A DNA stretch of 64,000 bases from an uncultured Candidatus Saccharibacteria bacterium (GCA_965231155.1 OZ246418.1:368751-432750), one strand, 5' to 3'. Shown: positions 33,334 to 64,000, counted from the stretch's first letter. Made by a program: numbers and translations. The notes: generated from the letters alone by a model not told the origin.

Positions 33334-34692
33334 TCAATTATTCAATGATCTTCTTAGAATTATTTGAAATTCTTTAGGAACAAAGTTCTGTTTATTCCAG
33401 GATACGAGGAAGGACTTATTGGGCTTCTTTTTTGCATAGAATTCCTTACGATAGCGCTCGAGGAGAAGGGGGAGTGGCATGTGTATTTTCTCATATTTTT
33501 CAATAGTGAGTTCTAGTGCAATTCTTGTTTCTTCTATTGTAGAGATGCAGTCAAAGGGGCGGTGTGCGGATTTTCCCAAGAAAGCAGGAATATATGACCA
33601 GAGGTGAGGGTTATTAAGGAGATTTCCCTTAAATATTTTTTGGAGTTCTTTTTCTTCTAAAAATGGAGAGAGAAGGAGGTAGATAGTGAAACACTTAGGG
33701 CATTTTTTGCACCAGGAATTTTCTTTTAAGTTTACGTTGCAACTTTTGAAAACTGAGAAGTGTTTTTGGTATTGAGAAAATATGTAAGCAATTTGCAGTT
33801 CGTGGACAGGACGGAGAAGGCTGAAGTAGTTTATTTCTTTCGAAAGATATTTGGATAAATACACGCGGAATTTCTTTTCAAACAAAAAACTCTTGGAATA
33901 CTGATGATTGATTGTTCGGTTTCCTTTTTTTAGGTTGCCTTCATCCGAACTTCGTTCTTGGGAAATGGCAATGTGTCGATAATCGAAGACTACTCCACAG
34001 AGTACGGTGAGAAAAGCTAAATAGCTTGAGAAAGGAGTGTGGCCATTGAGGTATCCTTTTTTATTGAGCGAGATAAGACTTGGATCGATTTTTCTTTGGA
34101 TGGTAATTGGTGGAAGATTTGAAACGGCTCGACTGGCATTGAGGGCAGCAGGAACGTTTCCTAAGACTAGAGTGCAAAACTGTGCTTTTGATTCTTTTAG
34201 TATTTCAGCAGAAACGAATGAGTCCTTTCCTCCTCCCATAGGAACAAGGTATCGATTTTTCAGTGAGAGATGATTTGAGGCGATAGTCGGTTTTTGAGCA
34301 GACGAAGTTATGTTCACGAACTTTTTGGAAAAAGGGATTTTATTTACATAGAAGAATTCAGCTAAACCATTTTCAAGTAGGTCCTGCCACCAGGTAATCT
34401 GTGATTTGGAGAGATATCCTGCCTTAATGATAATCTGAGGACTCGTGGTTGCTTTCCAGTAGCTAGGGATTTCGGCTAGGCCAAGATGGAAGATGAGGTT
34501 TTCGAGTAGTTCAGGGTTTATATTCTTTATCCTTTTTTCATCTATATTTTCTATAACTACTTCTGGTTCGAAGCGAATATTTGGAGAAACGGAAAAAGAA
34601 AAGCGAATGACCAAATCCTTCTTTTTAATATAGTAGGAATAAGATTCATACGTGAAGGTTGGGTGTTTTTCGCGGAGAGCTTTATAGGTCAT
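33334..34692 (-). CDS. PP-loop (adenine-nucleotide alpha-hydrolase superfamily)-like protein with C-terminal CxxC-x-C cluster, function unknown
   Basis: 452 aa. YLVPMGGGKDSFVSAEIL resembles the SGGxDS PP-loop. C-terminal CNVNLKENSWCKKCPKC. Sits between murD and gatC in one transcription unit. Confidence 0.5.
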   Translation of the reverse strand: MTYKALREKHPTFTYESYSYYIKKKDLVIRFSFSVSPNIRFEPEVVIENIDEKRIKNINPELLENLIFHLGLAEIPSYWKATTSPQIIIKAGYLSKSQITWWQDLLENGLAEFFYVNKIPFSKKFVNITSSAQKPTIASNHLSLKNRYLVPMGGGKDSFVSAEILKESKAQFCTLVLGNVPAALNASRAVSNLPPITIQRKIDPSLISLNKKGYLNGHTPFSSYLAFLTVLCGVVFDYRHIAISQERSSDEGNLKKGNRTINHQYSKSFLFEKKFRVYLSKYLSKEINYFSLLRPVHELQIAYIFSQYQKHFSVFKSCNVNLKENSWCKKCPKCFTIYLLLSPFLEEKELQKIFKGNLLNNPHLWSYIPAFLGKSAHRPFDCISTIEETRIALELTIEKYEKIHMPLPLLLERYRKEFYAKKKPNKSFLVSWNKQNFVPKEFQIILRRSLNN

Positions 34693-36032: not shown

Positions 36033-36839
36033 CTATTCTCCCTGATTGGTGAATCGAGCGTCAGCGTACTCCCAGAATTTATTTGAACCACCAATTGAGC
36101 TGGCACACTCGCTTTCCTCAGCATAACTCATGGCAAAACGATGAATACTGGTGAGTGGAAGATGGCGATAGATCCAGGCGACTTGTCCTTTTTCTCCGTA
36201 CTCGGCCATGACTTGCTTCATGGTTTCGTGGAAAGCCTGGCAGTAAGGACACTCAAAGTCAGAGAATTCAACAATTTTCACTGGAGCATTTTGGTTTCCA
36301 CGAATGTGGTCAGTACTGCTCACTGGAAGCATGTTGTAGATAGGATCATTTTTCTCTTTGGCGGTTGGTGGCGTGCTGGTACTGGCTAAAGCTTCTTCTA
36401 TAATCTTCTTCACCTCCTCATATGGATAAGCGCCGGCGATGAGGAACCTCTTTCCACTAGGGGCGATTACAATATTGTATGGCGTGCCTTGTCCACCGGC
36501 TTTTTCTGCATCAGCCATATGGCCTTGGATTTTTTCCGCGAATGATTTTTTTGCTAAGCAGGCTTCAACGGCGTCTTTTTTGAGTCCGATGCTCGCCATG
36601 ACATCAACTGGCTTGGCGGAGCCATTTTTCCCGGTGAATGAAGTAGGATCTCTATAGAGAATAGCAATGGCGACAAGGAGTCCAGCGCCAATGATAGAAA
36701 TAGGGATGAGGTAGGGGTTTTCTTTTTTATTTTCGAACTCGATATCTATCTTTTCGGGGATTGTGGTAATCGGATCCATTTCTTTCTTCATAGCTTTTAC
36801 CGCAACCGTTTTCTCTTTCGTGATTTTTTTTGTGGGCAT
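36033..36839 (-). CDS. DsbA-like thiol:disulfide oxidoreductase (thioredoxin fold) with N-terminal membrane anchor
   Basis: CPYC active site (FECPYCQAF). N-terminal TM IPISIIGAGLLVAIAIL. Confidence 0.75.
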   Translation of the reverse strand: MPTKKITKEKTVAVKAMKKEMDPITTIPEKIDIEFENKKENPYLIPISIIGAGLLVAIAILYRDPTSFTGKNGSAKPVDVMASIGLKKDAVEACLAKKSFAEKIQGHMADAEKAGGQGTPYNIVIAPSGKRFLIAGAYPYEEVKKIIEEALASTSTPPTAKEKNDPIYNMLPVSSTDHIRGNQNAPVKIVEFSDFECPYCQAFHETMKQVMAEYGEKGQVAWIYRHLPLTSIHRFAMSYAEESECASSIGGSNKFWEYADARFTNQGE

Positions 36840-37019
36840 AAAAATAGTATAGCATAACTTATTTTATTTTTTTATGAATATTTTTGAACACTAAGAACAA
36901 ACTTCTCCTTGAAGTGTATGATTTTTGAGAAGCTATCGGAGAAACTAAGGTTTTGAGATCCAGGGAAACTTTCAGTAGGAAGTTATCCCGGTTCACAAAA
37001 ATTGCATACTGAAGATTGT

Positions 37020-37089
37020 TGCGGGGGCCGGACTCGAACCGGCTCCACGAGCTTATGGGGCTCGCATGGTAACCCTTCCACCACCCCGC
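37020..37089 (-). tRNA. tRNA with anticodon CAT (Met, or Ile2-lysidine type), compact (about 70 nt), no encoded CCA
   Basis: Minus strand GCGGGG(T)...CCCCGC acceptor. Anticodon stem CGAGC/GCTCG with loop CCCATAA (C at position 33 is unusual). T-arm GCCGG-TTCGAGT-CCGGC. Confidence 0.75.
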
Positions 37090-37220
37090 GATATGACGGC
37101 TTATTATAGAAGGGAATGAGAGCAATTGTCAAAACATCAAATAGATGATACAAATTTCTAGTATTCGTAGCCCCGACGTTGCAGTCGGGATGGTGGAGCG
37201 AGTTTGTTTGTCTTATGAAT

Positions 37221-37292
37221 GCTGGCGTAGCTCAGTGGTAGAGCGAGGGACTCATAAACCCTAGGTCGGAAGTTCGATCCTTCCCGCCAGCA
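37221..37292 (+). tRNA. tRNA-Met (anticodon CAT; elongator vs initiator not resolved), no encoded CCA
   Basis: Acceptor GCTGGCG/CGCCAGC (G1-C72 paired). D-arm TAGCTCAGTGGTAGAGC. Anticodon loop CTCATAA. T-arm GGAAG-TTCGATC-CTTCC. Discriminator A. Confidence 0.85.
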
Positions 37293-37298
37293 CATCTT

Positions 37299-38024
37299 TC
37301 ATTTCTTGGTCTGCGTCGCAAACCTCATTTTTAGTACATTCACGAGGCCTTCTTTGATGATGGAGGACTTAAATTTTGAAGCACCGATTATTCTGTCTCG
37401 AAAGGTGATGGGGACTTCGATCATCGAATAGTTATTTTTTAGTGCTTGCCATTTGAGCCAGATCTGAAAAAAGTAACCGTCGAAAGTAATTTCTTCTTGG
37501 AGAATTTTTTGTAGAGTCTCTTTGCGCCACCCATTGAATCCACCAGTCAAATCTCGAATGGATATCTGAAGGATGCTTCGCGCATAAAGGTTGCCCAGTC
37601 GACTAATCATTTTTCTTTGGAAGTTCCAGCCTTCAATTTCCCCTTTTTTTGTGTAGCGAGAACCAACAACTACGTCGTACTCTCTGAGGGCGTTATAGAT
37701 CTTTGCAATATCTCGATAGTCGTGGCTCCCATCGGCATCCATCTGAACAATAGCCTCGGCCCCAAGATTGAGAGCGTAGTCGAATCCTTCTTTATATGAT
37801 TGTGCAAAACTCTTGGTTTGCTTTCGTTCTATAAGGTGGAGACGGGGTGTTTGTTTTTGGATTTCTCTTACCTCTCGTACTGTACTATCAGTTGAGTGAT
37901 CGTCGACAACAATAACTGAAGTAATATGTGGATCTTCAAGGAGGTGGGGGATGATCTTACTCACATTACCCGCTTCGTTCAGCGTGGGAATAACTATGAC
38001 CAGTTTTTTTATTGAATGGGGCAT
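37299..38024 (-). CDS. Family 2 glycosyltransferase, polyprenyl-phosphate sugar synthase type (DPM1 / GtrB-like)
   Basis: VIPTLNEAGNV, VVDDHSTDST, DADGSH (DxD-containing GT-A fold). 241 aa. Confidence 0.85.
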   Translation of the reverse strand: MPHSIKKLVIVIPTLNEAGNVSKIIPHLLEDPHITSVIVVDDHSTDSTVREVREIQKQTPRLHLIERKQTKSFAQSYKEGFDYALNLGAEAIVQMDADGSHDYRDIAKIYNALREYDVVVGSRYTKKGEIEGWNFQRKMISRLGNLYARSILQISIRDLTGGFNGWRKETLQKILQEEITFDGYFFQIWLKWQALKNNYSMIEVPITFRDRIIGASKFKSSIIKEGLVNVLKMRFATQTKK

Positions 38025-38473
38025 TATTCTCTGAAAACGACATACTTATATTGAAGGAAGTTTGAAAGGGAGCCACAGGCGATACCAAGTAAGGAAGCAA
38101 TGTTGGCCCATAGTTGGGGAGAAAGTTCTGCGGGGTGAATAGTGTGTACCAATAACGCAGCGATGCCGATGTTGATGATGCCACTGAGAAGGCTGGCGAG
38201 ATAAAATTTTTCAAATCGTTTTTCGTTCTGAGAGGAAAATACCCAGTGTCTATTCCAGAAAAAGTTGTGATAGACAGCTACAGAGAAGGAGAGGGTTTTA
38301 AAAACAAGGAAGGATGCTCCGGCGGAGAGGCCGGTAAGGAACATGGCCGTATTGAGGACGGTGAGGTCAATAATCACGCCAACGATACCAACGAGGGAAA
38401 AGGCAGCGATCTGATACCAACTCTTTGTGGCGTTGCGATGCCACCAGAAGGCCACTTCTTTTTTCTTAAGCAT
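38024..38473 (-). CDS. GtrA-family membrane protein (flippase-like partner of the GT2)
   Basis: Four TM helices. Motif FFWNRHWVFSSQ typical of GtrA. Start taken at MLKKKEVAFWW; the longer ORF to 38659 would run into the divergent promoter region. Confidence 0.7.
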   Translation of the reverse strand: MLKKKEVAFWWHRNATKSWYQIAAFSLVGIVGVIIDLTVLNTAMFLTGLSAGASFLVFKTLSFSVAVYHNFFWNRHWVFSSQNEKRFEKFYLASLLSGIINIGIAALLVHTIHPAELSPQLWANIASLLGIACGSLSNFLQYKYVVFRE

Positions 38474-38539: not shown

Positions 38540-41500
38540 GTGAAGAAAATAACGTCGCTTTTTATACTTGCTGGAGGAGTTTTTTTGTTTTCCGTTTATG
38601 TTCTCTTCGGCGCTCCTGGCTTGCTGACGAGAGTTCTGGTTCAGGCCCAAGTGGCACATACCGATATCATTACAAGTATCGTTGGCGGAGGCAATGGTGA
38701 CGGTTGTCCAGTGAAAAGTGCTGCAGAGATTATGGCTCAGGGCATGACAATCGATCGCAGTGGGAATCTTATGATAAGAGAGGGCTCTCTAAACCCCCGC
38801 TTACGAATTGTCTCTCCGATTGTTGGCAATGCCTTGAGTCCTGAGTCTATAATTTCGACTCCCTCTGGTCAGGAAGAGATTTTCAGGAATCCTTTCTATA
38901 TAAGTAATGCAGGAGGTGTTGCTTTTGATGCTGAGGGGAGGTGGTATGTCAGTGATGGTTACGCCAGGATCTGGAGGAGGTCTCCTGCTGGTCAGTGGGA
39001 AGTTTTTGCTGGAATGACCAGTCCTGGATACAGCGGTGATGGAGGGATACCGACAAATGCCGAGCTTTCTTCTCCTGCCAGTCTTACTTTTGATACTTCG
39101 GGTACTTTGTATATTGTGGAGGTAGGAAGTAATCGAATTCGAAGGATAAAGAATGGGATTATTGATACACTTCTCCAGTTCGATGTTGCCGATGCACGTC
39201 GTTTGGCGATGGACTCGGATGGTAATTTATTGGTAGTCAATCAGATTGCTCATGCTATCAGAAAGATTGATGTGCAAACTGGAGAAGTAACTCTCGTTGC
39301 AGGTACTGGTGTACAGGGATTTTCTGGTGATGGTGGTCCAGCAACAGCGGCACAGCTTTATTTGCCATCTGATTTAGCAGTTTCTTCGAATGGTGATATC
39401 TATATTGCTGATGCCGTGAATCATCGCGTGAGAAAGATTGCAAAGACTACCGGAATTATTACCACGGTAGTTGGCACAGGAGATTCTCGTGGAGCAGTGC
39501 GTGAAAACATTCCTGCCACCACTGCCTCTCTCGATAGTCCAATTTCTCTAGCAATCGATTCTCGTGACAGACTTTATATTGGTGAGGGTGGGGGAACTCA
39601 TAAGGGGATTAGAGTTGTGGAGAATGGGATTATTTCTTCTTTTTCTGGTTTGACGAATGGAGAAGGGTGTTTCGCTCAGAACGCTTTTCTTCGACCCTAC
39701 TCGATGCTTGTGGATGAGAGCAATAATTTAACCTTCATCGATTTTGATACTGCGAAAGTAATGAGGGTTCCTGCTCGTAATGGCGTGCAAGACGGGACTG
39801 GTGTGATGACGAGAATTACCGATTTTGATAGCTTGCAGGGCTCGACGACTTTTGCTTTAGCCAAAGATTCTGCGGGTATTCTATATGCTATTAATGGAAA
39901 TAGGATTTTGAAATTGCTCAGTCCTAATAATTGGGTTGTAGTTGCTGGAACAGGGGTGGCTGGATTTTCTGGTGATGGTGGTCCGGCAACAGCGGCAACG
40001 CTGAGAGATCCATATGACCTTCTGGTGGCTTCTGATGGTACAATTTTTTTCTCTGATCAAAATAATAATCGAATCAGAACAGTCTCTCCCACTGGGACGA
40101 TTGACACATACGTAAGTTTTCCGGTGCAACCTCGCGGAATCGATCAGGATCGGTTTGGTAATCTTTTCGTAGCAATCAGATACGGAAGTGTTTATAAAAT
40201 AGCCGCGGGAACCAGGGAAATTTCTGTTGTGGCAGGTGGCGGTTTGTCGAGAGGCTATCCAGATAGCGGAGAGGTTTCTGCGACCAGCACCTTTATTAAT
40301 TCAAATGACGTGGTCGTTGCTTCTGACGGAACTCTTTATATATCATCAGATCCTCAAACCCATCGAGTATTTCGCGTAACGCCTCAGGGCATGATGAGAA
40401 CTTTAGTCGGCTCTAATCTCTTTTATTCCACGCCGACAGGTGACGGTGGGCCGGCTGTCGGAGCATCACTTTCTGAACCACATCGTTTAGCTCTCGATCG
40501 ACAGGGAAATCTTTTTATTGCTGATTACGCCCATCGTCGGATCCGTAAGATTACGATGAGCGCAACTACCCCTCAGCCGAATCCTGTGCCAGTTCTCTCC
40601 GGACTCAGTCATTCTCAGTTCAATGTTGGTCAGTCAAGTTACTACTTTTATGCTAATGGGAGTGGTTTTGTACCGGATTCTGTCATTCGTTGGAATGGTC
40701 AGGATAGGCCTACGGTATACGTTTCTTCTCAGCAGATACGTATCGTGACTCAGGCTTCTGATATGGCGAATCCTGGAACGGTGGCGATTACGGTGTATAC
40801 GCCACCACCTGGAGGAGGGGTGTCTGGTAGTCAGACGCTTACAATTATAGATCCCAATGCTCCAAGCTCTAGTCAGCCGAGTATTACTAGCATTTCGCCA
40901 AACACAAAGGTAGCAGGTGGCGCTGGTTTTAATATGATTCTTACTGGTTCAAACTTTTCGAATAATTCTGTGGTGAAATGGAACAATCAAGTTCGGGTTA
41001 CTATCTTTGATTCGATCGCTCGTCAACTGACTGCCCAGATTCTTGACGGTGATATACGAGCCACGGGAACTTTCCCAGTAACCGTCGAGAACCCATCGCC
41101 TAGTGGAGGAGTGTCGGCTCCACTTATGTTTACAGTAACTGATCCTGCCTCACCACCTAACGAGACAACCTCTTGGCTTTCGAGTGGCGACCAACTTTAC
41201 ACAGCTTCTCAAGTGAGAAAGGTGGGCATTGGAACTACTGCTCCAGATTTTCCATTAACACTGCAGGCATTCGTAGGCGCCGACCCATTATTTTCTCGGG
41301 TGTTTTCTTTCCAGGATCAAAACGGTGTACGCAAGTGGCATCTTAATTTTCTGAATGGGGGATTGAACTTTGTGCAGTCTGGAGTGGCTGACTACAGACT
41401 GTTCTTAGCACAAAATGGAAATGTGGGAGTTGGTCTTGCAACTCCACAAGCAAAGCTGGATGTAAATGGCACAGTTAAGGTTGGTTCTCTTACTGCTGAT

Positions 41501-41605
41501 CCAACTGGAGAGAATGGAATGATTTATTACAATACCACTATGAACAAGTTCCGTTGTTACAAATCTAGTCAGTGGAGAAATTGTATTGCCGTGGTCATGC
41601 CTTAA
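38540..41605 (+). CDS. Large secreted NHL-repeat beta-propeller protein with IPT/TIG-like domains and a C-terminal about 125-aa Cys-containing module shared with the next two genes
   Basis: 1021 aa. Signal peptide. Repeated NHL motifs (YIADAVNHRVRKI, FIADYAHRRIRKI, FSDQNNNRIRTV, LYIVEVGSNRIRRI). Two Ig-like segments. C-terminal module TTSWLSS...GENGMIYYN...FRCY...W..C. Confidence 0.8.
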   Translation: MKKITSLFILAGGVFLFSVYVLFGAPGLLTRVLVQAQVAHTDIITSIVGGGNGDGCPVKSAAEIMAQGMTIDRSGNLMIREGSLNPRLRIVSPIVGNALSPESIISTPSGQEEIFRNPFYISNAGGVAFDAEGRWYVSDGYARIWRRSPAGQWEVFAGMTSPGYSGDGGIPTNAELSSPASLTFDTSGTLYIVEVGSNRIRRIKNGIIDTLLQFDVADARRLAMDSDGNLLVVNQIAHAIRKIDVQTGEVTLVAGTGVQGFSGDGGPATAAQLYLPSDLAVSSNGDIYIADAVNHRVRKIAKTTGIITTVVGTGDSRGAVRENIPATTASLDSPISLAIDSRDRLYIGEGGGTHKGIRVVENGIISSFSGLTNGEGCFAQNAFLRPYSMLVDESNNLTFIDFDTAKVMRVPARNGVQDGTGVMTRITDFDSLQGSTTFALAKDSAGILYAINGNRILKLLSPNNWVVVAGTGVAGFSGDGGPATAATLRDPYDLLVASDGTIFFSDQNNNRIRTVSPTGTIDTYVSFPVQPRGIDQDRFGNLFVAIRYGSVYKIAAGTREISVVAGGGLSRGYPDSGEVSATSTFINSNDVVVASDGTLYISSDPQTHRVFRVTPQGMMRTLVGSNLFYSTPTGDGGPAVGASLSEPHRLALDRQGNLFIADYAHRRIRKITMSATTPQPNPVPVLSGLSHSQFNVGQSSYYFYANGSGFVPDSVIRWNGQDRPTVYVSSQQIRIVTQASDMANPGTVAITVYTPPPGGGVSGSQTLTIIDPNAPSSSQPSITSISPNTKVAGGAGFNMILTGSNFSNNSVVKWNNQVRVTIFDSIARQLTAQILDGDIRATGTFPVTVENPSPSGGVSAPLMFTVTDPASPPNETTSWLSSGDQLYTASQVRKVGIGTTAPDFPLTLQAFVGADPLFSRVFSFQDQNGVRKWHLNFLNGGLNFVQSGVADYRLFLAQNGNVGVGLATPQAKLDVNGTVKVGSLTADPTGENGMIYYNTTMNKFRCYKSSQWRNCIAVVMP
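41163..41534 (+). repeat. 372-bp direct repeat, copy 1 (100% identical to 41730..42101)
   Basis: Base-for-base identity with copy 2 on manual comparison of all six 60-nt lines. Confidence 0.9.
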
Positions 41606-41641
41606 TTTGTGTATATGATAGAATACAGATAACTACGTTCC

Positions 41642-42157
41642 ATGGATATCCATAAAAAAATAGTACATTCATCGTTTCTGATTAGTGCTGTTATTCTAAG
41701 CCTCTTTTCTTTTACGATGGTTTTGGCTCAGACAACCTCTTGGCTTTCGAGTGGCGACCAACTTTACACAGCTTCTCAAGTGAGAAAGGTGGGCATTGGA
41801 ACTACTGCTCCAGATTTTCCATTAACACTGCAGGCATTCGTAGGCGCCGACCCATTATTTTCTCGGGTGTTTTCTTTCCAGGATCAAAACGGTGTACGCA
41901 AGTGGCATCTTAATTTTCTGAATGGGGGATTGAACTTTGTGCAGTCTGGAGTGGCTGACTACAGACTGTTCTTAGCACAAAATGGAAATGTGGGAGTTGG
42001 TCTTGCAACTCCACAAGCAAAGCTGGATGTAAATGGCACAGTTAAGGTTGGTTCTCTTACTGCTGATCCAACTGGAGAGAATGGAATGATTTATTACAAT
42101 AATTCCTTGCAAACTTTTCGTTGTTATGAGGCTGGAATGTGGAAGGATTGTTTTTAA
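41642..42157 (+). CDS. Small secreted protein consisting of signal peptide plus the shared C-terminal module (paralog of the NHL protein C-terminus)
   Basis: 171 aa. Signal peptide ends ...MVLAQ. The mature protein is identical over 124 aa to the NHL protein C-terminal module, then diverges in the last about 18 aa (NNSLQTFRCYEAGMWKDCF vs TTMNKFRCYKSSQWRNC). Confidence 0.6.
   Translation: MDIHKKIVHSSFLISAVILSLFSFTMVLAQTTSWLSSGDQLYTASQVRKVGIGTTAPDFPLTLQAFVGADPLFSRVFSFQDQNGVRKWHLNFLNGGLNFVQSGVADYRLFLAQNGNVGVGLATPQAKLDVNGTVKVGSLTADPTGENGMIYYNNSLQTFRCYEAGMWKDCF
41730..42101 (+). repeat. 372-bp direct repeat, copy 2
   Basis: Identical to 41163..41534. Confidence 0.9.
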
Positions 42158-42248
42158 TATTATTGCTAGGTGTGGATATCTAGACATATTATATTAAAAA
42201 AGGTGTTATAATTTTATCAATAAGTCGGGTGTGAAAATTTAAATAATA

Positions 42249-43583
42249 ATGAAAAAGACATCGTCGATTATTTGGTTCGCTGCGTTTTCTGTAGTGACCA
42301 TTCTCCTATCTCAACTTCCTGCAGTTGATGCTCAAACAGGAGACACATGGGCAGTTGATGCTAATAACAATGTTGTTACCGCGGTTGGTACTGAAAATGT
42401 TGGTATTCGAACAACTAATCCCGACCTTCCCCTAACAGTTCAGGCTAAGGCTGGAAGCACGGCCTGGCTTCGTTTTCGTGATAGCAGTGCAATTAACAAG
42501 TTTCATATCAGTGGTCTAAATGGTGGATTTAATATTGCAGAGTCTGGTGTGATAGATGGTCGTTTGTATCTTAAGCCTGGAGGAGCGGCTGGTATCAATA
42601 CAACCAGTCCGTTCGGTGGAACATTTTCTGGAAACGGCTTAGATATTAATGGCATCTTGAAAGTAGGGGGTCAGGGATTCAACGAGGCTACGACAGGCGC
42701 TGGTGGTATGATGTACTACAATGGAACAAAGTTTCGTTGTAACGAAGGAGGAAGTTGGAAGGACTGTGTGGTAGGTGGGGGTAGTGGAGGAGGTATCGGT
42801 AATGATGCGCCAAGTCCAAATGCGCTGCCAAGGTGGACGAGCACTGGTAATGCTTTTTTGACCAATAGTAATATTTCCGATAATGGCACTCAGGTCACTA
42901 TTAGCAAGCCCACTTCTATTACTGGTAGCCTTTCCGCGAGCTCTATCACGGTGACTGGTGGATCTCCAACAGTTTGTCAGGCTGGCCAAGTTCTGGCTGG
43001 AGCGACTGTTCGAGGAGGATTAGTGACGGGTGGTACTTGTTCCTCGTTCATTTCGAGCACTCCTGGATTTTCTTTGTGGGAGCAGATTCCTGGTACGGCA
43101 AAACTGAAGACTTCAGCAACGATTGATGCTATTGGTGTGGGAACAAGTGACGTCGATCTTCCTCTTACTATTAAAGGCGGTGGTCAGTCTGGATCAGCCT
43201 GGATTCGTTTGAAGGATAGTACTGGAGCTAACAAATGGCATTTCACTGGTTTTGGTGGTGGATTTAGTTTCGTGGAGACCGGTGTTGCTGGTGGTGATGG
43301 GAGGTTCTTCATTAAAGCGGGTAGTGGCAATGTCGGTATGGGAACAATTACTCCAGGGGCAAAATTAGAAATTTCAACTCCAACAAGCAATGCGCTACGT
43401 TTGCGTCGTGGAACTCCGGGTAGTGTTGATGTATTTTCTGCAGTAGGCAGTGGAACTGGAAATTCTTTGTGTGGTGTTCCAACGGCAGGTGCATGTCTTG
43501 CTGCTTTTGATAGTAGCCGTTCTTCCATTAGTTGTTCTGAGGGAGGAGCGATCCGTGCTCTTTGTGCCGCGGTAGGGGATTAA
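42249..43583 (+). CDS. Secreted protein with two divergent tandem copies of the same module followed by a Cys-rich tail
   Basis: 444 aa. Signal peptide. Copy A VGIRTTNPDLPLTVQ...GGFNIAESGVIDGRLYL...MMYYNGTKFRCNEGGSWKDC. Copy B IGVGTSDVDLPLTIK...GGFSFVETGVAGGDGRFFI...GNVGMGTITPGAKLEI. Confidence 0.6.
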   Translation: MKKTSSIIWFAAFSVVTILLSQLPAVDAQTGDTWAVDANNNVVTAVGTENVGIRTTNPDLPLTVQAKAGSTAWLRFRDSSAINKFHISGLNGGFNIAESGVIDGRLYLKPGGAAGINTTSPFGGTFSGNGLDINGILKVGGQGFNEATTGAGGMMYYNGTKFRCNEGGSWKDCVVGGGSGGGIGNDAPSPNALPRWTSTGNAFLTNSNISDNGTQVTISKPTSITGSLSASSITVTGGSPTVCQAGQVLAGATVRGGLVTGGTCSSFISSTPGFSLWEQIPGTAKLKTSATIDAIGVGTSDVDLPLTIKGGGQSGSAWIRLKDSTGANKWHFTGFGGGFSFVETGVAGGDGRFFIKAGSGNVGMGTITPGAKLEISTPTSNALRLRRGTPGSVDVFSAVGSGTGNSLCGVPTAGACLAAFDSSRSSISCSEGGAIRALCAAVGD

Positions 43584-43653: not shown

Positions 43654-44409
43654 ATGATTCTTTCGTTGAACCTTGTCCGAGAGATTGTTTTGTCCGACTA
43701 CAAGTTGAGATATCAGGGCTCTATTCTTGGTTTTTTCTGGTCATTTTTGAAGCCTCTTCTTATGTTTGGAGTGCTTTTGGTGGTGTTTTCAGAGTTTATG
43801 CGTTTTGATATTCCTCACTATCCCTTCTATTTGCTGCTAGGAATTATTATCTGGAATTTTTTTGCTGAGGCAACAACTTCTTCAAGCGCTAGTCTCTTAG
43901 CAAAAGGGGGGTTAATCAAGAAGATCTATTTTCCAAAAAGCACCATTGTTGTTTCTGCAGTTTTGACTGCCGCCTTAAACTTTTTCTTCAACTTTTTTGT
44001 TTTTTTCATAATTCTTCTTTTCAGGACGCAAGTTTTTTTGGGGGGACTATTGTTGTTTTGCGTTCTTTTTCTTGAACTGTTTTTCTTGTCCCTTGGCATT
44101 TCTTTTCTTGTTTCTTCTTTGAACGCTCGTTTAAAGGATATCGCTCATATTTGGGAGTTACTTCTTCAGGCTGGATTTTGGCTTACTCCAGTTGTCTATG
44201 CCAAGGAGATGATTCCGCCGAGTTATCAGTGGCTTATTAATCTGAATCCTCTGGCACAGATTATCGAGTATGCCCGGGGGGTACTCCTTTTCCAGACCAT
44301 ACCGTCATTTTTTAGCGTCGTGTCTCTCACGGTATTCGTCGGCGTTGTTTTTGCTATAGGATATTCTGTATTCCGCAGTCGAGAGAATTTTTTTGCTGAG
44401 GAACTATAG
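43654..44409 (+). CDS. ABC-2 type polysaccharide export permease (Wzm/TagG-like)
   Basis: Six TM helices. N-terminal REIVLSDYKLRYQGSILGFFWSFLKP is typical of ABC-2 exporters. Confidence 0.8.
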   Translation: MILSLNLVREIVLSDYKLRYQGSILGFFWSFLKPLLMFGVLLVVFSEFMRFDIPHYPFYLLLGIIIWNFFAEATTSSSASLLAKGGLIKKIYFPKSTIVVSAVLTAALNFFFNFFVFFIILLFRTQVFLGGLLLFCVLFLELFFLSLGISFLVSSLNARLKDIAHIWELLLQAGFWLTPVVYAKEMIPPSYQWLINLNPLAQIIEYARGVLLFQTIPSFFSVVSLTVFVGVVFAIGYSVFRSRENFFAEEL

Positions 44410-44410
44410 C

Positions 44411-45592
44411 ATGCACTTACCGGTAATAGAACTGAAAAAGGTCTCCAAGAGTTTCCTCATTCCTCATGAAAAGATGAGCACTTTGCGCGAGCGCTTTATT
44501 CATCTTTTTCGGCCAAGAACATACGAGTCGTTCAGAGCATTGTCCGACATATCCCTGGCCGTTCAGCCCGGTGAATTCCTTGGAGTTATCGGTGACAACG
44601 GGAGTGGTAAATCCACTTTCTTGAAAGTTCTATCGGGTGTACTGAGGCCTGATTCTGGTAAGGTCAAAGTGCGTGGCGTGATCTCTCCTTTCCTTGAGTT
44701 AGGGTTGGGCTTTCAGCCAGATTTGTCTGGTCGGGAGAATATGTTTCTTTATGGCGCTCTCCTTGGTCTTTCTAGGAAAGATATTCATAAGAAGTACCAA
44801 GAGATCGTGGCCTTTGCTGAGCTTGAGAGATTTATTGATCAGAAGATAAAAAATTACTCTTCAGGTATGCAGGTTCGTTTGGCTTTTGCGATTACCATCC
44901 AAGCTCAAGCTGATATTTTCTTAGTAGACGAAGTATTGGCTGTTGGTGATTATAAGTTTCAAGAAAAATGTTTTGAGGTATTTCGTCGGTTTAAGCAGGA
45001 AAAGAAGACGGTGATTTTTGTGAGTCATGATTTGGAAAAAGTTGAACAGTTTTGCGAACGTTCGATTTTGATCAAGGACGGTCAGTTAGTGAAGTCTGGC
45101 AGAACGGACGAGGTCGTTACTTACTACAAAGCCCAAAGAAGGGGTGGCGCTCCTTTCACTGAGAAGAGAGAGGGGGTGCTTGTCTCGGATGTGACCCTTC
45201 TCGATGGGAGTGGAAAGGTCTGTGCTGTGTTTCATCCCAATGAGCCAATGACGGCAACTTTTCGATACCATTCTTCTCAGGACTTCGATCAAGTCATTTT
45301 TCAGATTCAGATGTATACGGAGGGCGGTTGGCTTTGCGCTGGAGACAATACCGATCGGCATGGCTTGGTCAAAGAAGGGACGAGTGGAAGAGGAGTTGGT
45401 CGTATCCAGTACGATGCTATTAATCTTTTGAGCGGTCGTTATACTGTTTTCATAAAAATTTGGCCATCCGGTTTCTCTGGGCCGTGTTTTGAGTCTCAAC
45501 CCGTTTATTTTTCCGTAGAGAGTCGTCCGGAAGAGGGAGGGGCGATTTGTTATATGCCGGCTCGGTGGGAGATTGAGTCAAAGAACGAGTAA
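44411..45592 (+). CDS. Polysaccharide ABC-transporter ATP-binding protein (Wzt/TagH-like) with extra C-terminal domain
   Basis: Walker A GDNGSGKST. Signature SGMQVRLAFA. Walker B IFLVDEVLAVGD. About 150-aa C-terminal extension (possible substrate-binding domain). Alternative start 44393 overlaps wzm. Confidence 0.9.
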   Translation: MHLPVIELKKVSKSFLIPHEKMSTLRERFIHLFRPRTYESFRALSDISLAVQPGEFLGVIGDNGSGKSTFLKVLSGVLRPDSGKVKVRGVISPFLELGLGFQPDLSGRENMFLYGALLGLSRKDIHKKYQEIVAFAELERFIDQKIKNYSSGMQVRLAFAITIQAQADIFLVDEVLAVGDYKFQEKCFEVFRRFKQEKKTVIFVSHDLEKVEQFCERSILIKDGQLVKSGRTDEVVTYYKAQRRGGAPFTEKREGVLVSDVTLLDGSGKVCAVFHPNEPMTATFRYHSSQDFDQVIFQIQMYTEGGWLCAGDNTDRHGLVKEGTSGRGVGRIQYDAINLLSGRYTVFIKIWPSGFSGPCFESQPVYFSVESRPEEGGAICYMPARWEIESKNE

Positions 45593-46641
45593 TGAAATAC
45601 GGTGCTTTAACATATACCGATATCGCTCCTTTTTCTTCGGGGAATATTGGTGATTACATTCAGAGCCTGGCAGCTATTCAGTTCTTGCCTCGTATCGATA
45701 TTTTTTTAGAAAGGGAAAATCTTAAAACTACTCCAGAAGGAGAGGAGATTTTTGTCATCATGAATGGATGGTTTATGCATCGTCCAGAAAATTTTCCGCC
45801 ACCGAAGAATATTCGTCCATTTTATATTTCATTTTGCGTGGCTGACGAGAAGATGCTTTCTCCAGATGCTGTCGAACATTTAAAGAAACATGGGCCAATT
45901 GGTTGTCGCGATTATGATACGGTTGAGCTTCTTCGAGCCAAAGGAGTACCGGCTTATTTTTCGGGTTGTCTGACTCTGACTTTTGAAAATTTTTACAAGA
46001 AAAGAAACGGCGGTGTTTATCTTGTTGATGTGAAGGAAGGTTTTTTAGATTCTGTTCCTGCTGGCATAAGAGAGAGAGCTGTGGGACTTTCTCACGAGGC
46101 TATTCTTCCGCAAAGTTCGTTGGAGCTATTGAGGATGGGTAGGGTCAAGTATTTTGCTCACACAAAAAGAGCTAAAATACTAGATCTTTTTGTTCTTTTT
46201 CGCCGAATTTTTTCTTGGCGGTTTAGAAAGCTGTTGCCAAAAAATGATTATCGATTTAGCACTTTTAGTACATTTTTGAATCTAGTTCGCGCACAAAGTT
46301 TTCTGGATTTTTATGCCCAGGCAGATTTGGTCATTACGAGTCGTCTCCACGTTGCCCTTCCTTGTCTCGCTTTTAGTACGCCAGTTATTTTGTTCAAGCC
46401 TCACTACGAGGAGAATCATGATAGGTTCACGGCAGTCAAGGAATATCTCCAGTCTTTTTCCGAGAATGAGCTAGGTGCTATCAACTGGTATCCTCAGCCT
46501 CCCCAGGTAGAAGCTCACCAGAAATTCCTTCGTCTTATTGTGAGAGAGGCTGTCTTGATTGGTGATAATCCCTTGAAGAATCGAGATCTAGAGTACTTCT
46601 ACAAGGAGAGCGGTTGGTATCCTTCTTCTGGTGTTTTATGA
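45592..46641 (+). CDS. Polysaccharide pyruvyl transferase family protein (CsaB/WcaK-like)
   Basis: N-terminal GNIGDYIQ and C-terminal LVITSRLHVALPCLAFSTPVI match the PS_pyruv_trans pattern. Confidence 0.55.
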   Translation: MKYGALTYTDIAPFSSGNIGDYIQSLAAIQFLPRIDIFLERENLKTTPEGEEIFVIMNGWFMHRPENFPPPKNIRPFYISFCVADEKMLSPDAVEHLKKHGPIGCRDYDTVELLRAKGVPAYFSGCLTLTFENFYKKRNGGVYLVDVKEGFLDSVPAGIRERAVGLSHEAILPQSSLELLRMGRVKYFAHTKRAKILDLFVLFRRIFSWRFRKLLPKNDYRFSTFSTFLNLVRAQSFLDFYAQADLVITSRLHVALPCLAFSTPVILFKPHYEENHDRFTAVKEYLQSFSENELGAINWYPQPPQVEAHQKFLRLIVREAVLIGDNPLKNRDLEYFYKESGWYPSSGVL

Positions 46642-61124: not shown

Positions 61125-61321
61125 CTCTTCTACGTATGAGGACTCATAGAAACCTGTTGACCTAGAGTGGTTGCGCGAGGCTTTCTAAAGTCTTGGGTGC
61201 CGCTCAGAGAGCGGTTTTTTTGTTCCATGCGAGCTCGTTGAAATTTTAATGATTAAGTAATTAAGTAGGTTCGTCTTCTTGCTCCTCAAGGCAGGAAGCG
61301 AACATAAGTCAGCATTGGGAT

Positions 61322-64000
<2,679 letters not shown>

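What the first reader, a model, noticed from the sequence alone, without database searches (positions are those of the whole stretch)
38540..43583. Three consecutive secreted proteins share an uncharacterised Cys-containing module (possible cell-surface anchoring or lectin-like domain)
Three proteins carry the same about 125-aa module: the NHL/IPT protein (C-terminal), the 171-aa protein (whole mature chain) and the 444-aa protein (two divergent tandem copies). The module has conserved blocks VGIGTTxPDxPLTxQ, W(H/I)..F.GGLNF..SGV.DYRLFL, GNVG(V/M)GxxTPxAKL(D/E)(V/I), YYN..FRC...W.(D/N)C. The GNVGIGTTsP...KLxV motif is reminiscent of repeats I recall from tail-fibre-like or lectin-like surface proteins, but I cannot assign a family from memory. 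In the NHL protein it sits at the C-terminus, and it can exist alone; both facts fit an anchoring or targeting module rather than an enzymatic one. The genes lie between the GtrA/GT2 pair and a Wzm/Wzt glycan-export locus, consistent with a glycan-binding (cell-wall or S-layer attachment) role.
Basis: partly seen in the sequence, partly recalled or inferred. Interest (0 to 1): 0.6.

Follow-up and report, generated by a model that had tools for sequence, protein, structure and literature searches.

The report
Tail-fibre-like unit shared by three proteins
Three neighbouring secreted proteins of a tiny candidate-phyla (Patescibacteria) bacterium share a building block of phage-tail-fibre-like, probably three-chain surface fibres, already solved in Bdellovibrio; the kind is known, but it is used here in an unusual minimal and back-to-front arrangement.

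Summary
Four copies of a roughly 140-aa module sit in three consecutive signal-peptide proteins (pairwise BLASTP E 1e-12 to 2e-32). The NHL-protein and 171-aa copies are 100% identical over 372 nt.

The two GNVGIGTTxPxxKL motifs match the published "capping loops" that bound one beta-helix segment. The YYN..FRC..W.DC end is a short variant of a widespread element (PF26696-type).

Trimerisation is inferred from homology, not shown. The window proteins lack the MAT N-terminal domain and the S74 chaperone. In the NHL protein the unit is C-terminal.

Anchoring or glycan binding remains possible but untested. Across 79 distant loci there is no Wzm/Wzt link. In two related Patescibacteria the two-module protein again lies just upstream of Wzm/Wzt.

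Verdict: a new variant of a known kind, of moderate interest.

The parts
38540..41605 (+). Gene for a 1021-aa secreted protein: signal or anchor segment, NHL beta-propeller region (aa ~45-680), two IPT/TIG = CoaZ_rpt_PGGG domains (aa 682-865), C-terminal fibre module
   Evidence: ORF. Pfam TEN_NHL, NHL and TIG. NCBIfam NF058597 (E 2.3e-49).
41162..41602 (+). Module copy 1 (aa 875-1021 of the NHL protein)
   Evidence: Alignment A1. BLASTP vs copy 2: 91% identity, E 7e-101.
41163..41534 (+). Exact 372-nt repeat, first copy (gene-conversion tract inside module copy 1)
   Evidence: 100% identical to 41730-42101. Identity collapses after 41534.
41642..42157 (+). Gene for a 171-aa protein: signal peptide (41642-41728) followed by a single module and nothing else
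   Evidence: ORF. No Pfam or NCBIfam family. The exact protein is on record from an 808-kb NCBI contig.
41729..42154 (+). Module copy 2 (mature 171-aa protein), the copy that was modelled
41730..42101 (+). Exact 372-nt repeat, second copy
   Evidence: Logan contigs L001 and L002 begin at window 42072, which is 30 nt before the repeat end.
41786..41830 (+). First capping-loop motif of copy 2 (KVGIGTTAPDFPLTL)
   Evidence: Aligned column block in A1 and A3. Same motif class as the published MAT consensus (PMC10769870).
41984..42031 (+). Second capping-loop motif of copy 2 (GNVGVGLATPQAKLDV)
   Evidence: Motif scan. HMMER alignment to Bd2133 'GNVGIGATAPTAKLEVAGT'. PHROGs tail-fibre hits cover this stretch.
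42083..42151 (+). C-terminal end element of copy 2 (GMIYYNNSLQTFRCYEAGMWKDC), modelled as a three-strand beta meander with a C-x8-C pair
   Evidence: DSSP strands at mature residues 121-124, 129-134 and 137-140. Homologous ends occur in P0056, P0071, P0283, L010 and L028.
42249..43583 (+). Gene for a 444-aa protein: signal peptide, module copy 3 with end element, Gly-rich linker, small Cys-loop unit, module copy 4, Cys-rich C-terminal region
   Evidence: ORF. Orthologues in L083 (55-57% identity) and L085 = P0283 (37-38%) have the same architecture. AF2 confidence profile.
42333..42794 (+). Module copy 3 (including the YYN..FRC..W.DC end and the start of the Gly-rich linker)
   Evidence: BLASTP vs copy 2: 40% identity, E 2e-32. 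pLDDT 80-95 over the core.
42975..43040 (+). Cys-bounded loop (C243...C264) in the linker, modelled as a four-strand mini beta unit
   Evidence: Both Cys are invariant in the orthologues. Strands at residues 247-266, pLDDT ~60-72.
43056..43373 (+). Module copy 4 (core plus both capping motifs, no YYN..FRC end)
   Evidence: BLASTP vs copy 2: 39% identity, E 6e-16. Alignment A1.
43374..43580 (+). Cys-rich C-terminal region of the 444-aa protein (possible tip domain)
   Evidence: 81% identical to the L083 orthologue, against 58% for MurD. Not confidently modelled, pLDDT <50.
43654..45592 (+). Wzm (ABC2_membrane) and Wzt (ABC_tran + Wzt_C) glycan exporter, immediately downstream. Context only, not part of the module
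   Evidence: Pfam. The same adjacency to the two-module protein is seen in L083 and L085.
45592..46641 (+). Polysaccharide pyruvyl transferase (context)
   Evidence: Pfam PS_pyruv_trans, E 2.1e-18.
36033..36839 (-). Membrane-anchored DsbA-like thiol-disulfide oxidoreductase (context for the Cys pairs)
   Evidence: Pfam Thioredoxin_4 and DSBA. Conserved next to MurD in all relatives examined.
37299..38473 (-). GT2 (37299-38024) and GtrA-like (38024-38473) genes, divergent from the NHL gene (context)
   Evidence: Pfam. The same divergent arrangement is seen in L082.

Best explanation
The shared module is one structural unit of a phage-tail-fibre-like beta-helix fibre. This is the class solved in the Bdellovibrio 'mosaic adhesive trimer' (MAT) proteins and present in the stalks and tips of phage fibres that carry the S74 chaperone.

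Anatomy of the module:
- an N-terminal strand (T.W...)
- a first capping loop (VGIGTTxPDxPLT)
- about 50 residues of beta strands (..KWH.N..GGLNF.ESGV.D.RLF..)
- a second capping loop (GNVGxGxxTPxAKLDV)
- a 25-residue C-terminal beta meander (G.IYYN..FRC....W.DC), stapled by a lineage-specific Cys pair.

Shown here: sequence and fold homology to the MAT and S74 fibre units, the size of the family, the architecture of the three proteins, the exact 372-nt repeat, and the synteny in relatives.

Inferred by homology: three chains intertwine through this unit. On that reading the module acts mainly as a self-assembling trimerisation and fibre segment. The three Sec-exported proteins would then be trimeric surface structures of a Patescibacteria cell:
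- a tri-headed NHL/IPT protein held together at its C-terminus
- a minimal one-unit stub (171 aa)
- a conserved two-unit mini-fibre with a Cys-rich tip (444 aa).

The module is the constant part and the NHL head is the variable part. The head is almost unrecognisable in a relative whose MurD is 80% identical. I therefore infer that the module mediates assembly or attachment to something constant (self), and the head faces the environment.

Whether the groove between the two capping loops also binds a glycan, as reported for S74 fibre tips, is undecided.
For: Sequence homology to solved fibres:
- The profile of the four copies hits Bd2133 8OND (E 5.7e-9) and 8OML, 8ON4, 8OJN and 8OL4, with weak MyRF 7DC3. 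The alignment runs from KWH..GGLNF through the second capping loop.
- The cap-plus-end profile gives 8OND at E 5.2e-12.

Fold:
- The AF2 model of the mature 171-aa protein has pLDDT 81.4 and is all-beta.
- The Foldseek PDB top 12 are all MAT fibre chains, probability 1.00 for ranks 1-10 and 0.99 for ranks 11-12.
- BFVD gives 56 viral hits at E<=1e-3, many named 'intramolecular chaperone auto-processing' or 'Peptidase S74' proteins.

Family:
- PMC10769870 describes the capping loops, the intertwined trimer and trimerisation as an invariant property of these fibres.
- 99,320 representatives match at E<=1e-3 and 2,902 at E<=1e-30. The top hits are 2-8 kaa proteins with 20-65 matched stretches.
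- In P0038 the module lies directly before a Peptidase_S74 domain.
- Almost all Pfam domains found in 141 homologues are phage-fibre or trimeric-tip ones: Peptidase_S74 (6), Phage_T4_gp36 (4), Gp53-like_C, Phage_depo_C and C1q.

Constant module, variable head:
- The relative L082 has MurD 80% and DsbA 90% identical, yet its head shows only ~25% repeat-level similarity. It still ends '...NVASWLTQSDQL', the start of the module.
- Exact 372-nt repeat.
- The orthologous two-module protein is conserved in L083 and L085.
Against: - Trimerisation was not tested. Only single-chain prediction was possible, and AF2 folded the monomer with fair confidence (pTM 0.67), so a monomeric form is not excluded.
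- TM-scores to single MAT chains are modest (~0.4-0.45).
- The window proteins lack the conserved ~130-aa MAT N-terminal domain (and direct reading) and any S74 chaperone.
- In the NHL protein the unit is at the C-terminus, behind globular domains. This is the reverse of the known polarity (fibre first, tip last).
- No function of any kind has been tested for these proteins.
- How they stay on the cell is unknown.
Confidence: 0.7

Rival explanations
1. Cell-envelope anchor. The groove between the capping loops binds the cell's own glycopolymer exported by the adjacent Wzm/Wzt system, possibly pyruvylated. The module would then tether different surface proteins to the wall, functionally like SLH domains on pyruvylated secondary cell-wall polymer. 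This is compatible with the module also being a trimeric fibre unit.
For: - The orthologue of the 444-aa protein lies just upstream of Wzm/Wzt in the window, in L083 and in L085, at only 55-58% MurD identity.
- PS_pyruv_trans follows Wzt.
- The module is constant while the head varies.
- The module occupies the C-terminal position after 'choice-of-anchor Z' domains. From my own knowledge of that naming scheme, its members usually carry a sorting signal there.
Against: - None of 79 module-bearing loci from other phyla has a Wzm, and only one has a weak ABC-ATPase hit.
- L086, another relative, lacks the arrangement.
- The pyruvyl transferase is not seen in the parts of L083 and L085 that were read.
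- Synteny among relatives may simply be inherited gene order, since MurD and DsbA are also conserved nearby.
- No known wall-binding family or fold matched.
Confidence: 0.25
2. Distal adhesin. The N-terminal hydrophobic segment of the NHL protein is an uncleaved membrane anchor, and the C-terminal unit is the outward tip. As in mature S74 phage fibres, it would bind a glycan on another cell (the host of an episymbiotic Patescibacteria). The 171-aa and 444-aa proteins would be free or loosely bound mini-adhesins.
For: - In S74 relatives the module is the last unit before the cleavage site, that is, the mature tip (P0038).
- PMC10769870 links that tip's cleft to O-antigen binding.
- MAT fibres are prey-recognition adhesins.
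- The N-to-C polarity would then match known fibres.
Against: - The module is the conserved part, even 100% identical between paralogues, whereas receptor-binding parts of fibres are normally the variable ones.
- The 171-aa and 444-aa N-termini look like ordinary cleavable signal peptides.
- There is no evidence about the organism's lifestyle.
Confidence: 0.15
3. Docking or heterotrimerisation device. Because the modules of the NHL protein and of the 171-aa protein are identical, the two co-assemble into mixed trimers (for example one NHL chain and two stubs). Gene conversion would keep the interfaces matched.
For: - Exact 372-nt identity with sharp borders inside otherwise unrelated or diverged genes, 36 nt apart in the same orientation.
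- Contig breaks at the module in independent Logan assemblies of this organism (L001 and L002 start 30 nt before the repeat end) and in an 80%-MurD relative (L082 ends ~10 codons into the module). These are consistent with repeated modules there too.
Against: - A recent conversion event needs no selective explanation.
- The last 24 residues differ between the two copies.
- No stoichiometry data exist.
- L083 and L085 have no 171-aa-type gene in the region read.
Confidence: 0.15
4. Prophage remnant: the genes are phage tail-fibre genes left in the chromosome.
For: Weak PHROGs tail-fibre hits over the capping motif and many viral structural neighbours.
Against: - All three proteins have Sec-type N-termini.
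- The neighbours are cell-envelope genes: GtrA, GT2, Wzm/Wzt, MurD and DsbA.
- The locus is syntenic in relatives.
- There is no compositional break.
Confidence: 0.03
5. Artefact: chance similarity of low-complexity Gly-rich sequence, or an assembly duplication.
For: The sequence is Gly/Thr/Asn-rich, and exact repeats can arise from mis-assembly of a MAG.
Against: - Pairwise E-values down to 2e-32 with composition-based statistics.
- A confident AF2 core.
- Thousands of homologues.
- Unitig breaks exactly k-1 = 30 nt inside the repeat end in two other assemblies.
Confidence: 0.02

Closest known systems
Bdellovibrio bacteriovorus MAT (mosaic adhesive trimer) fibre proteins, e.g. Bd2133 (PDB 8OND), Bd3182 (8OJN), Bd1334 (8OML), Bd2439 (8OL4) - PMC10769870
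   Same: - The same capping-loop motif (GNVGIGxxxPxAKLxV) bounding beta-helix segments.
- Sec-exported cellular proteins, not phage proteins.
- Cys-stapled 'G..I.F.G..F.C' hairpin elements also occur in MATs of Bdellovibrio sp. HCB-162.
   Different: - MATs are about 1000 aa. They have an invariant ~130-aa N-terminal domain, many fibre units, and a variable C-terminal tip or S74 chaperone.
- Here there are only one or two units, with no MAT N-terminal domain and no S74.
- In the NHL protein the unit is C-terminal to the globular domains, and the variable part is N-terminal.
- The host is a Patescibacteria, not a predator with a known invasion cycle.
Phage tail fibres and tailspikes with the S74 intramolecular chaperone (K1F endosialidase stalk 3GW6, T5 L-shaped fibre pb1 4UW8; Pfam Peptidase_S74 PF13884)
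   Same: - An intertwined beta-helix unit just upstream of the chaperone. Homologues of the window module sit in exactly that position (P0038, P0041, P0048).
   Different: - No S74 domain or SDxxxK site in the window proteins.
- Signal peptides are present.
- The genomic context is chromosomal cell-envelope genes.
PF26696-type element (K-G-L-L-x-P-R-x-T..QR.AI..P..G-x-x-x-Y-N....F.FY.G..W), seen in Bacteroidota and other fibre proteins. The family name is not available in the local Pfam copy.
   Same: - The window's C-terminal end (VKVGSLTADPTGENGMIYYN..FRC....W) aligns with it.
- It is ~60% identical to the end of P0056, a protein that carries the precomputed PF26696 label.
- Flavobacteriaceae 445-469-aa proteins end in the same cap-plus-meander.
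   Different: - The window version is shorter (the '..T..QR.AI..' stretch is missing) and has a C-x8-C pair.
- The window proteins carry no precomputed PF26696 label.
- The model itself could not be run.
SLH domains binding pyruvylated secondary cell-wall polymer (functional analogy only, from general knowledge of Gram-positive S-layer anchoring)
   Same: - A constant module shared by different surface proteins.
- Encoded next to glycopolymer export genes and a polysaccharide pyruvyl transferase.
   Different: - No sequence or fold relationship.
- Binding was not tested.

Membership tests
MAT / tail-fibre-like trimeric beta-helix fibres (PMC10769870) | Capping-loop motif (published consensus V-G-G/N-pi-x-x-P-x-x-x-L; GNVGIGTxxPxAKLxV in practice) bounding beta-helix segments | tested here: met
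   Two motifs per module in all four copies. HMMER aligns them to the loops of Bd2133, Bd3182, Bd1334 and Bd2439.
MAT / tail-fibre-like trimeric beta-helix fibres (PMC10769870) | Chain fold like that of a solved fibre beta-helix segment | tested here: met
MAT / tail-fibre-like trimeric beta-helix fibres (PMC10769870) | Intertwined homotrimer | not testable with these tools
   Only single-chain AlphaFold2 was available. Trimerisation is inferred from homology.
MAT / tail-fibre-like trimeric beta-helix fibres (PMC10769870) | Conserved ~130-aa beta-rich N-terminal domain directly after the signal peptide | tested here: not met
   BLASTP of the first 214 residues of a Bdellovibrio HCB-162 MAT protein (L028), which include that domain, against the 444-aa protein gives only an 18-residue hairpin match. 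In the 171-aa and 444-aa proteins the module starts at the predicted cleavage site.
MAT / tail-fibre-like trimeric beta-helix fibres (PMC10769870) | Long multi-unit fibre (~1000 aa) ending in a variable adhesive tip or an S74 domain | tested here: not met
   One unit in the 171-aa protein and in the NHL protein, two in the 444-aa protein. Only the 444-aa protein has a possible tip (aa 376-444), which was not modelled confidently.
Peptidase_S74 fibre proteins (PF13884) | C-terminal intramolecular chaperone domain with an SDxxxK autoproteolysis site | tested here: not met
   No PF13884 hit at E<=1 in any of the three proteins. It is present in homologues such as P0038.
PF26696-type terminal element | Match to the PF26696 model | not testable with these tools
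   The model is absent from the local Pfam copy: labelled proteins P0052 and P0056 give no hit. Similarity was shown only by alignment with labelled proteins.
Lectin / carbohydrate-binding beta-sandwich | Beta-sandwich or known lectin fold or family | tested here: not met
   No such family in Pfam or NCBIfam. No lectin or CBM among the significant fold matches.
Known surface-anchoring modules (SLH, LysM, LPXTG, PEP-CTERM, T9SS C-terminal domain) | Match to the family model or a C-terminal sorting signal | tested here: not met
   No hits in Pfam or NCBIfam. The C-termini have no hydrophobic or charged sorting tail.

The most novel reading that the evidence does not exclude
In Patescibacteria, a single tail-fibre-type beta-helix unit has been turned into a general C-terminal 'plug'. 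Through it, unrelated and fast-evolving surface heads (NHL/IPT proteins) would be trimerised. They would then be docked either onto a conserved two-unit base fibre (the 444-aa protein) or onto the Wzm/Wzt-exported, possibly pyruvylated glycopolymer. Gene conversion would keep the plugs of different genes identical so that they can co-assemble. This would be a previously undescribed surface-display and anchoring system for candidate-phyla bacteria, with the reverse polarity of phage and MAT fibres.
Probability: 0.15. Interest if true: 0.7.

Novelty: new variant of a known kind. Interest (0 to 1): 0.4.

Why it matters
The finding turns an apparently orphan 'Cys module' into something interpretable: a phage-tail-fibre-type fibre unit.

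- The family has about 99,000 cluster representatives at 50% identity. It reaches from Bacteroidota and Bdellovibrio to Patescibacteria and DPANN archaea. It is still missed by the Pfam and NCBIfam copies searched here.
- For Patescibacteria, whose cell surfaces and host-attachment machinery are poorly known, the locus gives three small, tractable proteins. The 171-aa protein may be close to the minimal self-assembling unit of this fibre class, which would suit structural or protein-engineering work.
- The locus gives a testable link between a conserved mini-fibre and a Wzm/Wzt glycan exporter.
- If the constant-module, variable-head arrangement proves general, it would show that cellular fibres can use the opposite polarity from phage fibres.

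Tried and rejected
- Pfam-A and NCBIfam scans of the module gave nothing. PHROGs gave only weak tail-fibre hits over the capping motif.
- A single-sequence word-indexed search gave just 22 hits. The profile was needed to reach the family.
- P0001 could not be located by exact look-up, and cluster look-up returned no names. The organism was placed in Patescibacteria only through MurD homologues. The window genome is not among the GTDB species representatives scanned.
- The afdb50 fold library was unavailable.
- The PDB profile search with the cap-plus-end alignment matched only the capping-loop part, so no solved structure of the YYN..F.C..W element was identified.
- The promoter and terminator scan was at chance level and says nothing about operon structure.
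- A literature search for the motif and for PF26696 found nothing.
- AF2 of the 444-aa protein left the C-terminal 80 residues unmodelled.
- ORFs inside the 23S rRNA insertion region look spurious.
- Considered and rejected: lectin or CBM beta-sandwich, known wall anchors, prophage remnant, low-complexity artefact (see the rivals and the membership table).

Full report
**1. What is in the sequence**

Three + strand ORFs lie at 38540-41605 (1021 aa), 41642-42157 (171 aa) and 42249-43583 (444 aa), separated by 36 and 91 nt. Each starts with a Lys-rich, then hydrophobic N-terminus. The two smaller ones have AxA-type sites (VLA|QTTSW, VDA|QTGDTW). This is read by eye; no predictor was available.

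The first protein has NHL repeats (aa ~45-680) and two IPT/TIG domains. NCBIfam calls these 'choice-of-anchor Z repeating domain' (aa 682-865, E 2.3e-49).

The last ~147 residues of the first protein, the whole mature 171-aa protein, and two regions of the 444-aa protein align as four copies of one module (A1).
- Pairwise BLASTP E-values run from 1e-12 to 2e-32 for the diverged pairs.
- A six-frame motif scan finds the signature motifs nowhere else in the window.
- Copy 4 lacks the YYN..FRC..W.DC end and continues into a different Cys-rich 70-aa region.

**2. An exact repeat**

Copies 1 and 2 are identical at the DNA level for 372 nt (41163-41534 = 41730-42101). Upstream there is no homology (IPT linker versus signal peptide). 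Downstream, the last ~70 nt are only ~67% identical. That pattern indicates a gene-conversion or recombination tract within older paralogues, not a simple fresh duplication.

Two Logan unitig assemblies of the same organism (L001, L002) start at window 42072. This is exactly 30 nt (k-1) before the repeat end, as expected at a true repeat boundary.

**3. What the module is**

No Pfam-A or NCBIfam family matches. PHROGs gives weak tail-fibre hits on the GNVGVG..P.AKLDV stretch.

A profile of the four copies, searched against all PDB sequences, hits the Bdellovibrio bacteriovorus fibre proteins:
- Bd2133 (8OND, E 5.7e-9), then 8OML, 8ON4, 8OJN and 8OL4, and faintly MyRF (7DC3).
- The alignment covers KWH..GGLNF..G....R.....GNVGxG..P.AKLxVxGT.

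The paper on these structures (PMC10769870) calls them mosaic adhesive trimers (MATs). It describes them as follows:
- They are intertwined trimeric beta-helices.
- The segments are bounded by 'capping loops' with the consensus V-G-G/N-pi-x-x-P-x-x-x-L.
- They are related to the stalks of phage fibres with the S74 chaperone (K1F 3GW6, T5 4UW8).
- Trimerisation is 'an invariant property'.

An AlphaFold2 model of the mature 171-aa protein (141-sequence alignment) has pLDDT 81.4 and is all-beta.
- Foldseek against the PDB returns MAT fibre chains as the top 12 hits, at probability 0.99-1.00.
- The viral structure library gives 56 hits at E<=1e-3, many named S74 or intramolecular-chaperone proteins.
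- No lectin or CBM fold appears.

**4. Size and make-up of the family**

A profile search of the word-indexed database gave more than 3,000 hits. The exhaustive search of 1.84 billion representatives gave 99,320 at E<=1e-3, 29,622 at E<=1e-10 and 2,902 at E<=1e-30. The best hits are 2,000-7,900-aa proteins with 20-65 matched stretches.

In several close homologues the same core (PLTIQ...KWHLN..GLNF.E..VAD.RLF...GGNVGIGT) lies directly before a Peptidase_S74 domain (P0038, module then S74 at 177-235).

Among 141 homologues, almost all accompanying Pfam domains are phage-fibre or trimeric-tip domains: S74 (6), T4 gp36 (4), Gp53-like_C, Phage_depo_C and C1q.

Genomic loci with the module come from Omnitrophota, Elusimicrobiota, Bacteroidota, Verrucomicrobiota, Planctomycetota, Cyanobacteria, Bdellovibrio, Patescibacteria and DPANN archaea.

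**5. The C-terminal end**

The stretch ..VKVGSLTADPTGENGMIYYN..FRC....W.DC is modelled as a three-strand meander. It aligns with:
- the ends of P0056 ('GDPTGVNGMIYYNSSSKKFRVFENGSWRNM', no Cys), P0071 and P0283;
- the C-termini of Flavobacteriaceae 445-469-aa proteins;
- internal junctions of Bdellovibrio MATs.

Longer versions of the element (KGLLxPRxT..QR.AI..P..G...YN....F.FY.G..W) carry the precomputed label PF26696. That model is not in the local Pfam copy, so membership could not be tested.

The Cys pair is C-x8-C in the window copies and their orthologues. It is absent or differently placed elsewhere, so it is a lineage-specific staple. A membrane-anchored DsbA-like gene lies nearby and is conserved in the relatives.

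**6. Organism and relatives**

The 171-aa protein is on record from an 808-kb NCBI contig. MurD homologues place the organism in Patescibacteria, with named neighbours in Liptonbacteria, Wolfebacteria and Paceibacterota.

Four relatives could be examined.
- **L082** (MurD 80% and DsbA 90% identical) has the same divergent GtrA/GT2 pair next to a gene of more than 949 aa.
  - The propeller head of that gene is barely alignable with the window's (about 25%, repeat level only).
  - It still ends '...NVASWLTQSDQL', the start of the module.
  - Its contig stops there, again as at a repeat.
- **L083** (MurD 58%) has a 440-aa orthologue of the 444-aa protein. Identity is 55-57% overall, and 45% in module 1, 66% in module 2 and 81% in the C-terminal region. 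The gene order is orthologue, small membrane protein, sulfatase, Wzm, Wzt.
- **L085** (MurD 55%) has a 413-aa orthologue (identical to P0283) directly upstream of Wzm and an ABC ATPase.
- **L086** (MurD 56%) lacks the arrangement.

By contrast, tblastn of the window's Wzm and Wzt against the 79 distant module-bearing loci (1.2 Mb) finds no Wzm and one weak ABC-ATPase match.

The family as a whole is therefore not tied to Wzm/Wzt. The two-module protein of this Patescibacteria lineage is.

**7. How it most likely works**

Shown: homology of sequence and chain fold to the MAT and S74 fibre units, the architecture, the repeat, and the synteny.

Inferred: three chains intertwine through the unit. 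On that reading:
- the 171-aa protein is a minimal one-unit trimer;
- the 444-aa protein is a two-unit mini-fibre with a conserved Cys-rich end;
- the NHL/IPT protein is a three-headed assembly joined at its C-terminus.

The module is constant (identical between paralogues and recognisable in L082) while the NHL head has diverged almost beyond recognition. I therefore infer that the module serves assembly or attachment to something invariant, and that the head is the exposed, fast-evolving part. This is the reverse of the polarity in phage and MAT fibres.

PMC10769870 reports that the cleft between the capping loops of S74 fibre tips binds their O-antigen ligand. The conserved neighbourhood to Wzm/Wzt, and here to a pyruvyl transferase, would fit binding of the cell's own glycopolymer. 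None of this was tested.

A third possibility is that the identical modules allow the small protein and the NHL protein to form mixed trimers.

**8. Comparison and membership**

The module works like, and is homologous to, the beta-helix units of MAT and S74 fibres. The three proteins are not canonical MATs:
- the invariant MAT N-terminal domain is absent;
- there is no S74 domain;
- they have one or two units instead of dozens;
- in the NHL protein the unit is terminal, behind globular domains.

They are best filed as a new architectural variant of a known fibre class.

**9. Verdict**

Interest is moderate (0.4). The kind is known and very common. The minimal forms, the reversed polarity, the conversion-maintained identity and the lineage-specific link to a glycan exporter in a candidate-phyla bacterium are new and testable.

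Noticed in passing
window 41163-41534 and 41730-42101: An exact 372-nt direct repeat lies inside two different genes, with sharp borders (a gene-conversion tract). Logan contigs of the same organism break 30 nt inside the repeat end. The contig of an 80%-MurD relative (L082) stops ~10 codons into its module.
   Followed up: yes
window 61321-64000 (+): A partial 23S rRNA covers Rfam model positions 1-2168 in 2680 nt, about 510 nt more than the model, so it has one or more insertions. No 16S lies upstream in the window. ORFs inside it look spurious, with no obvious homing endonuclease.
   Followed up: partly
L028 3907-13945 (Bdellovibrio sp. HCB-162, NZ_CP178861.1): Two MAT fibre genes (1512 and 1108 aa) are directly followed by a secreted 686-aa NHL-repeat protein. 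It is 29% identical to the window's NHL region (tblastn 1e-43). An NHL propeller is thus again associated with this fibre class, here as a neighbouring gene rather than a fusion.
   Followed up: partly
window 45592-46641 (+): A polysaccharide pyruvyl transferase (PS_pyruv_trans) lies directly after Wzt. It suggests that the exported glycopolymer is pyruvylated. From general knowledge, that modification makes secondary cell-wall polymers ligands for SLH domains in Gram-positives.
   Followed up: no
window 38540-41160 vs L082 2-2848(-): The N-terminal propeller head of the NHL protein is almost unalignable between two genomes whose MurD and DsbA are 80% and 90% identical. The head is either evolving very fast or has been replaced.
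   Followed up: partly
window 43374-43580 (aa 376-444 of the 444-aa protein): This Cys-rich C-terminal region is 81% identical to the L083 orthologue (MurD only 58%), making it the most conserved part of the protein. L085 has a shorter, different end. AF2 could not model the region. It loosely resembles the '...C.SG..GGGG...ICAKV' tip of several homologues (P0027, P0035, P0052, P0054).
   Followed up: partly
window 33334-34692 (-): This 452-aa ORF downstream of MurD has no hit in the local Pfam copy. Its positional counterparts in L085 and L086 carry PF26299/PF26298 (MurL N-terminal and epimerase domains).
   Followed up: no
window 37018-37293: Two tRNA-Met (CAT) genes lie on opposite strands about 130 nt apart, between the DsbA-like gene and the GT2/GtrA pair.
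   Followed up: no
window 47695-49800 (+) and L083 1-292: A large (~700 aa) protein with an N-terminal HAD-hydrolase domain is conserved in the Wzm/Wzt glycan locus of the window and of L083. Its role in the pathway is unknown.
   Followed up: no
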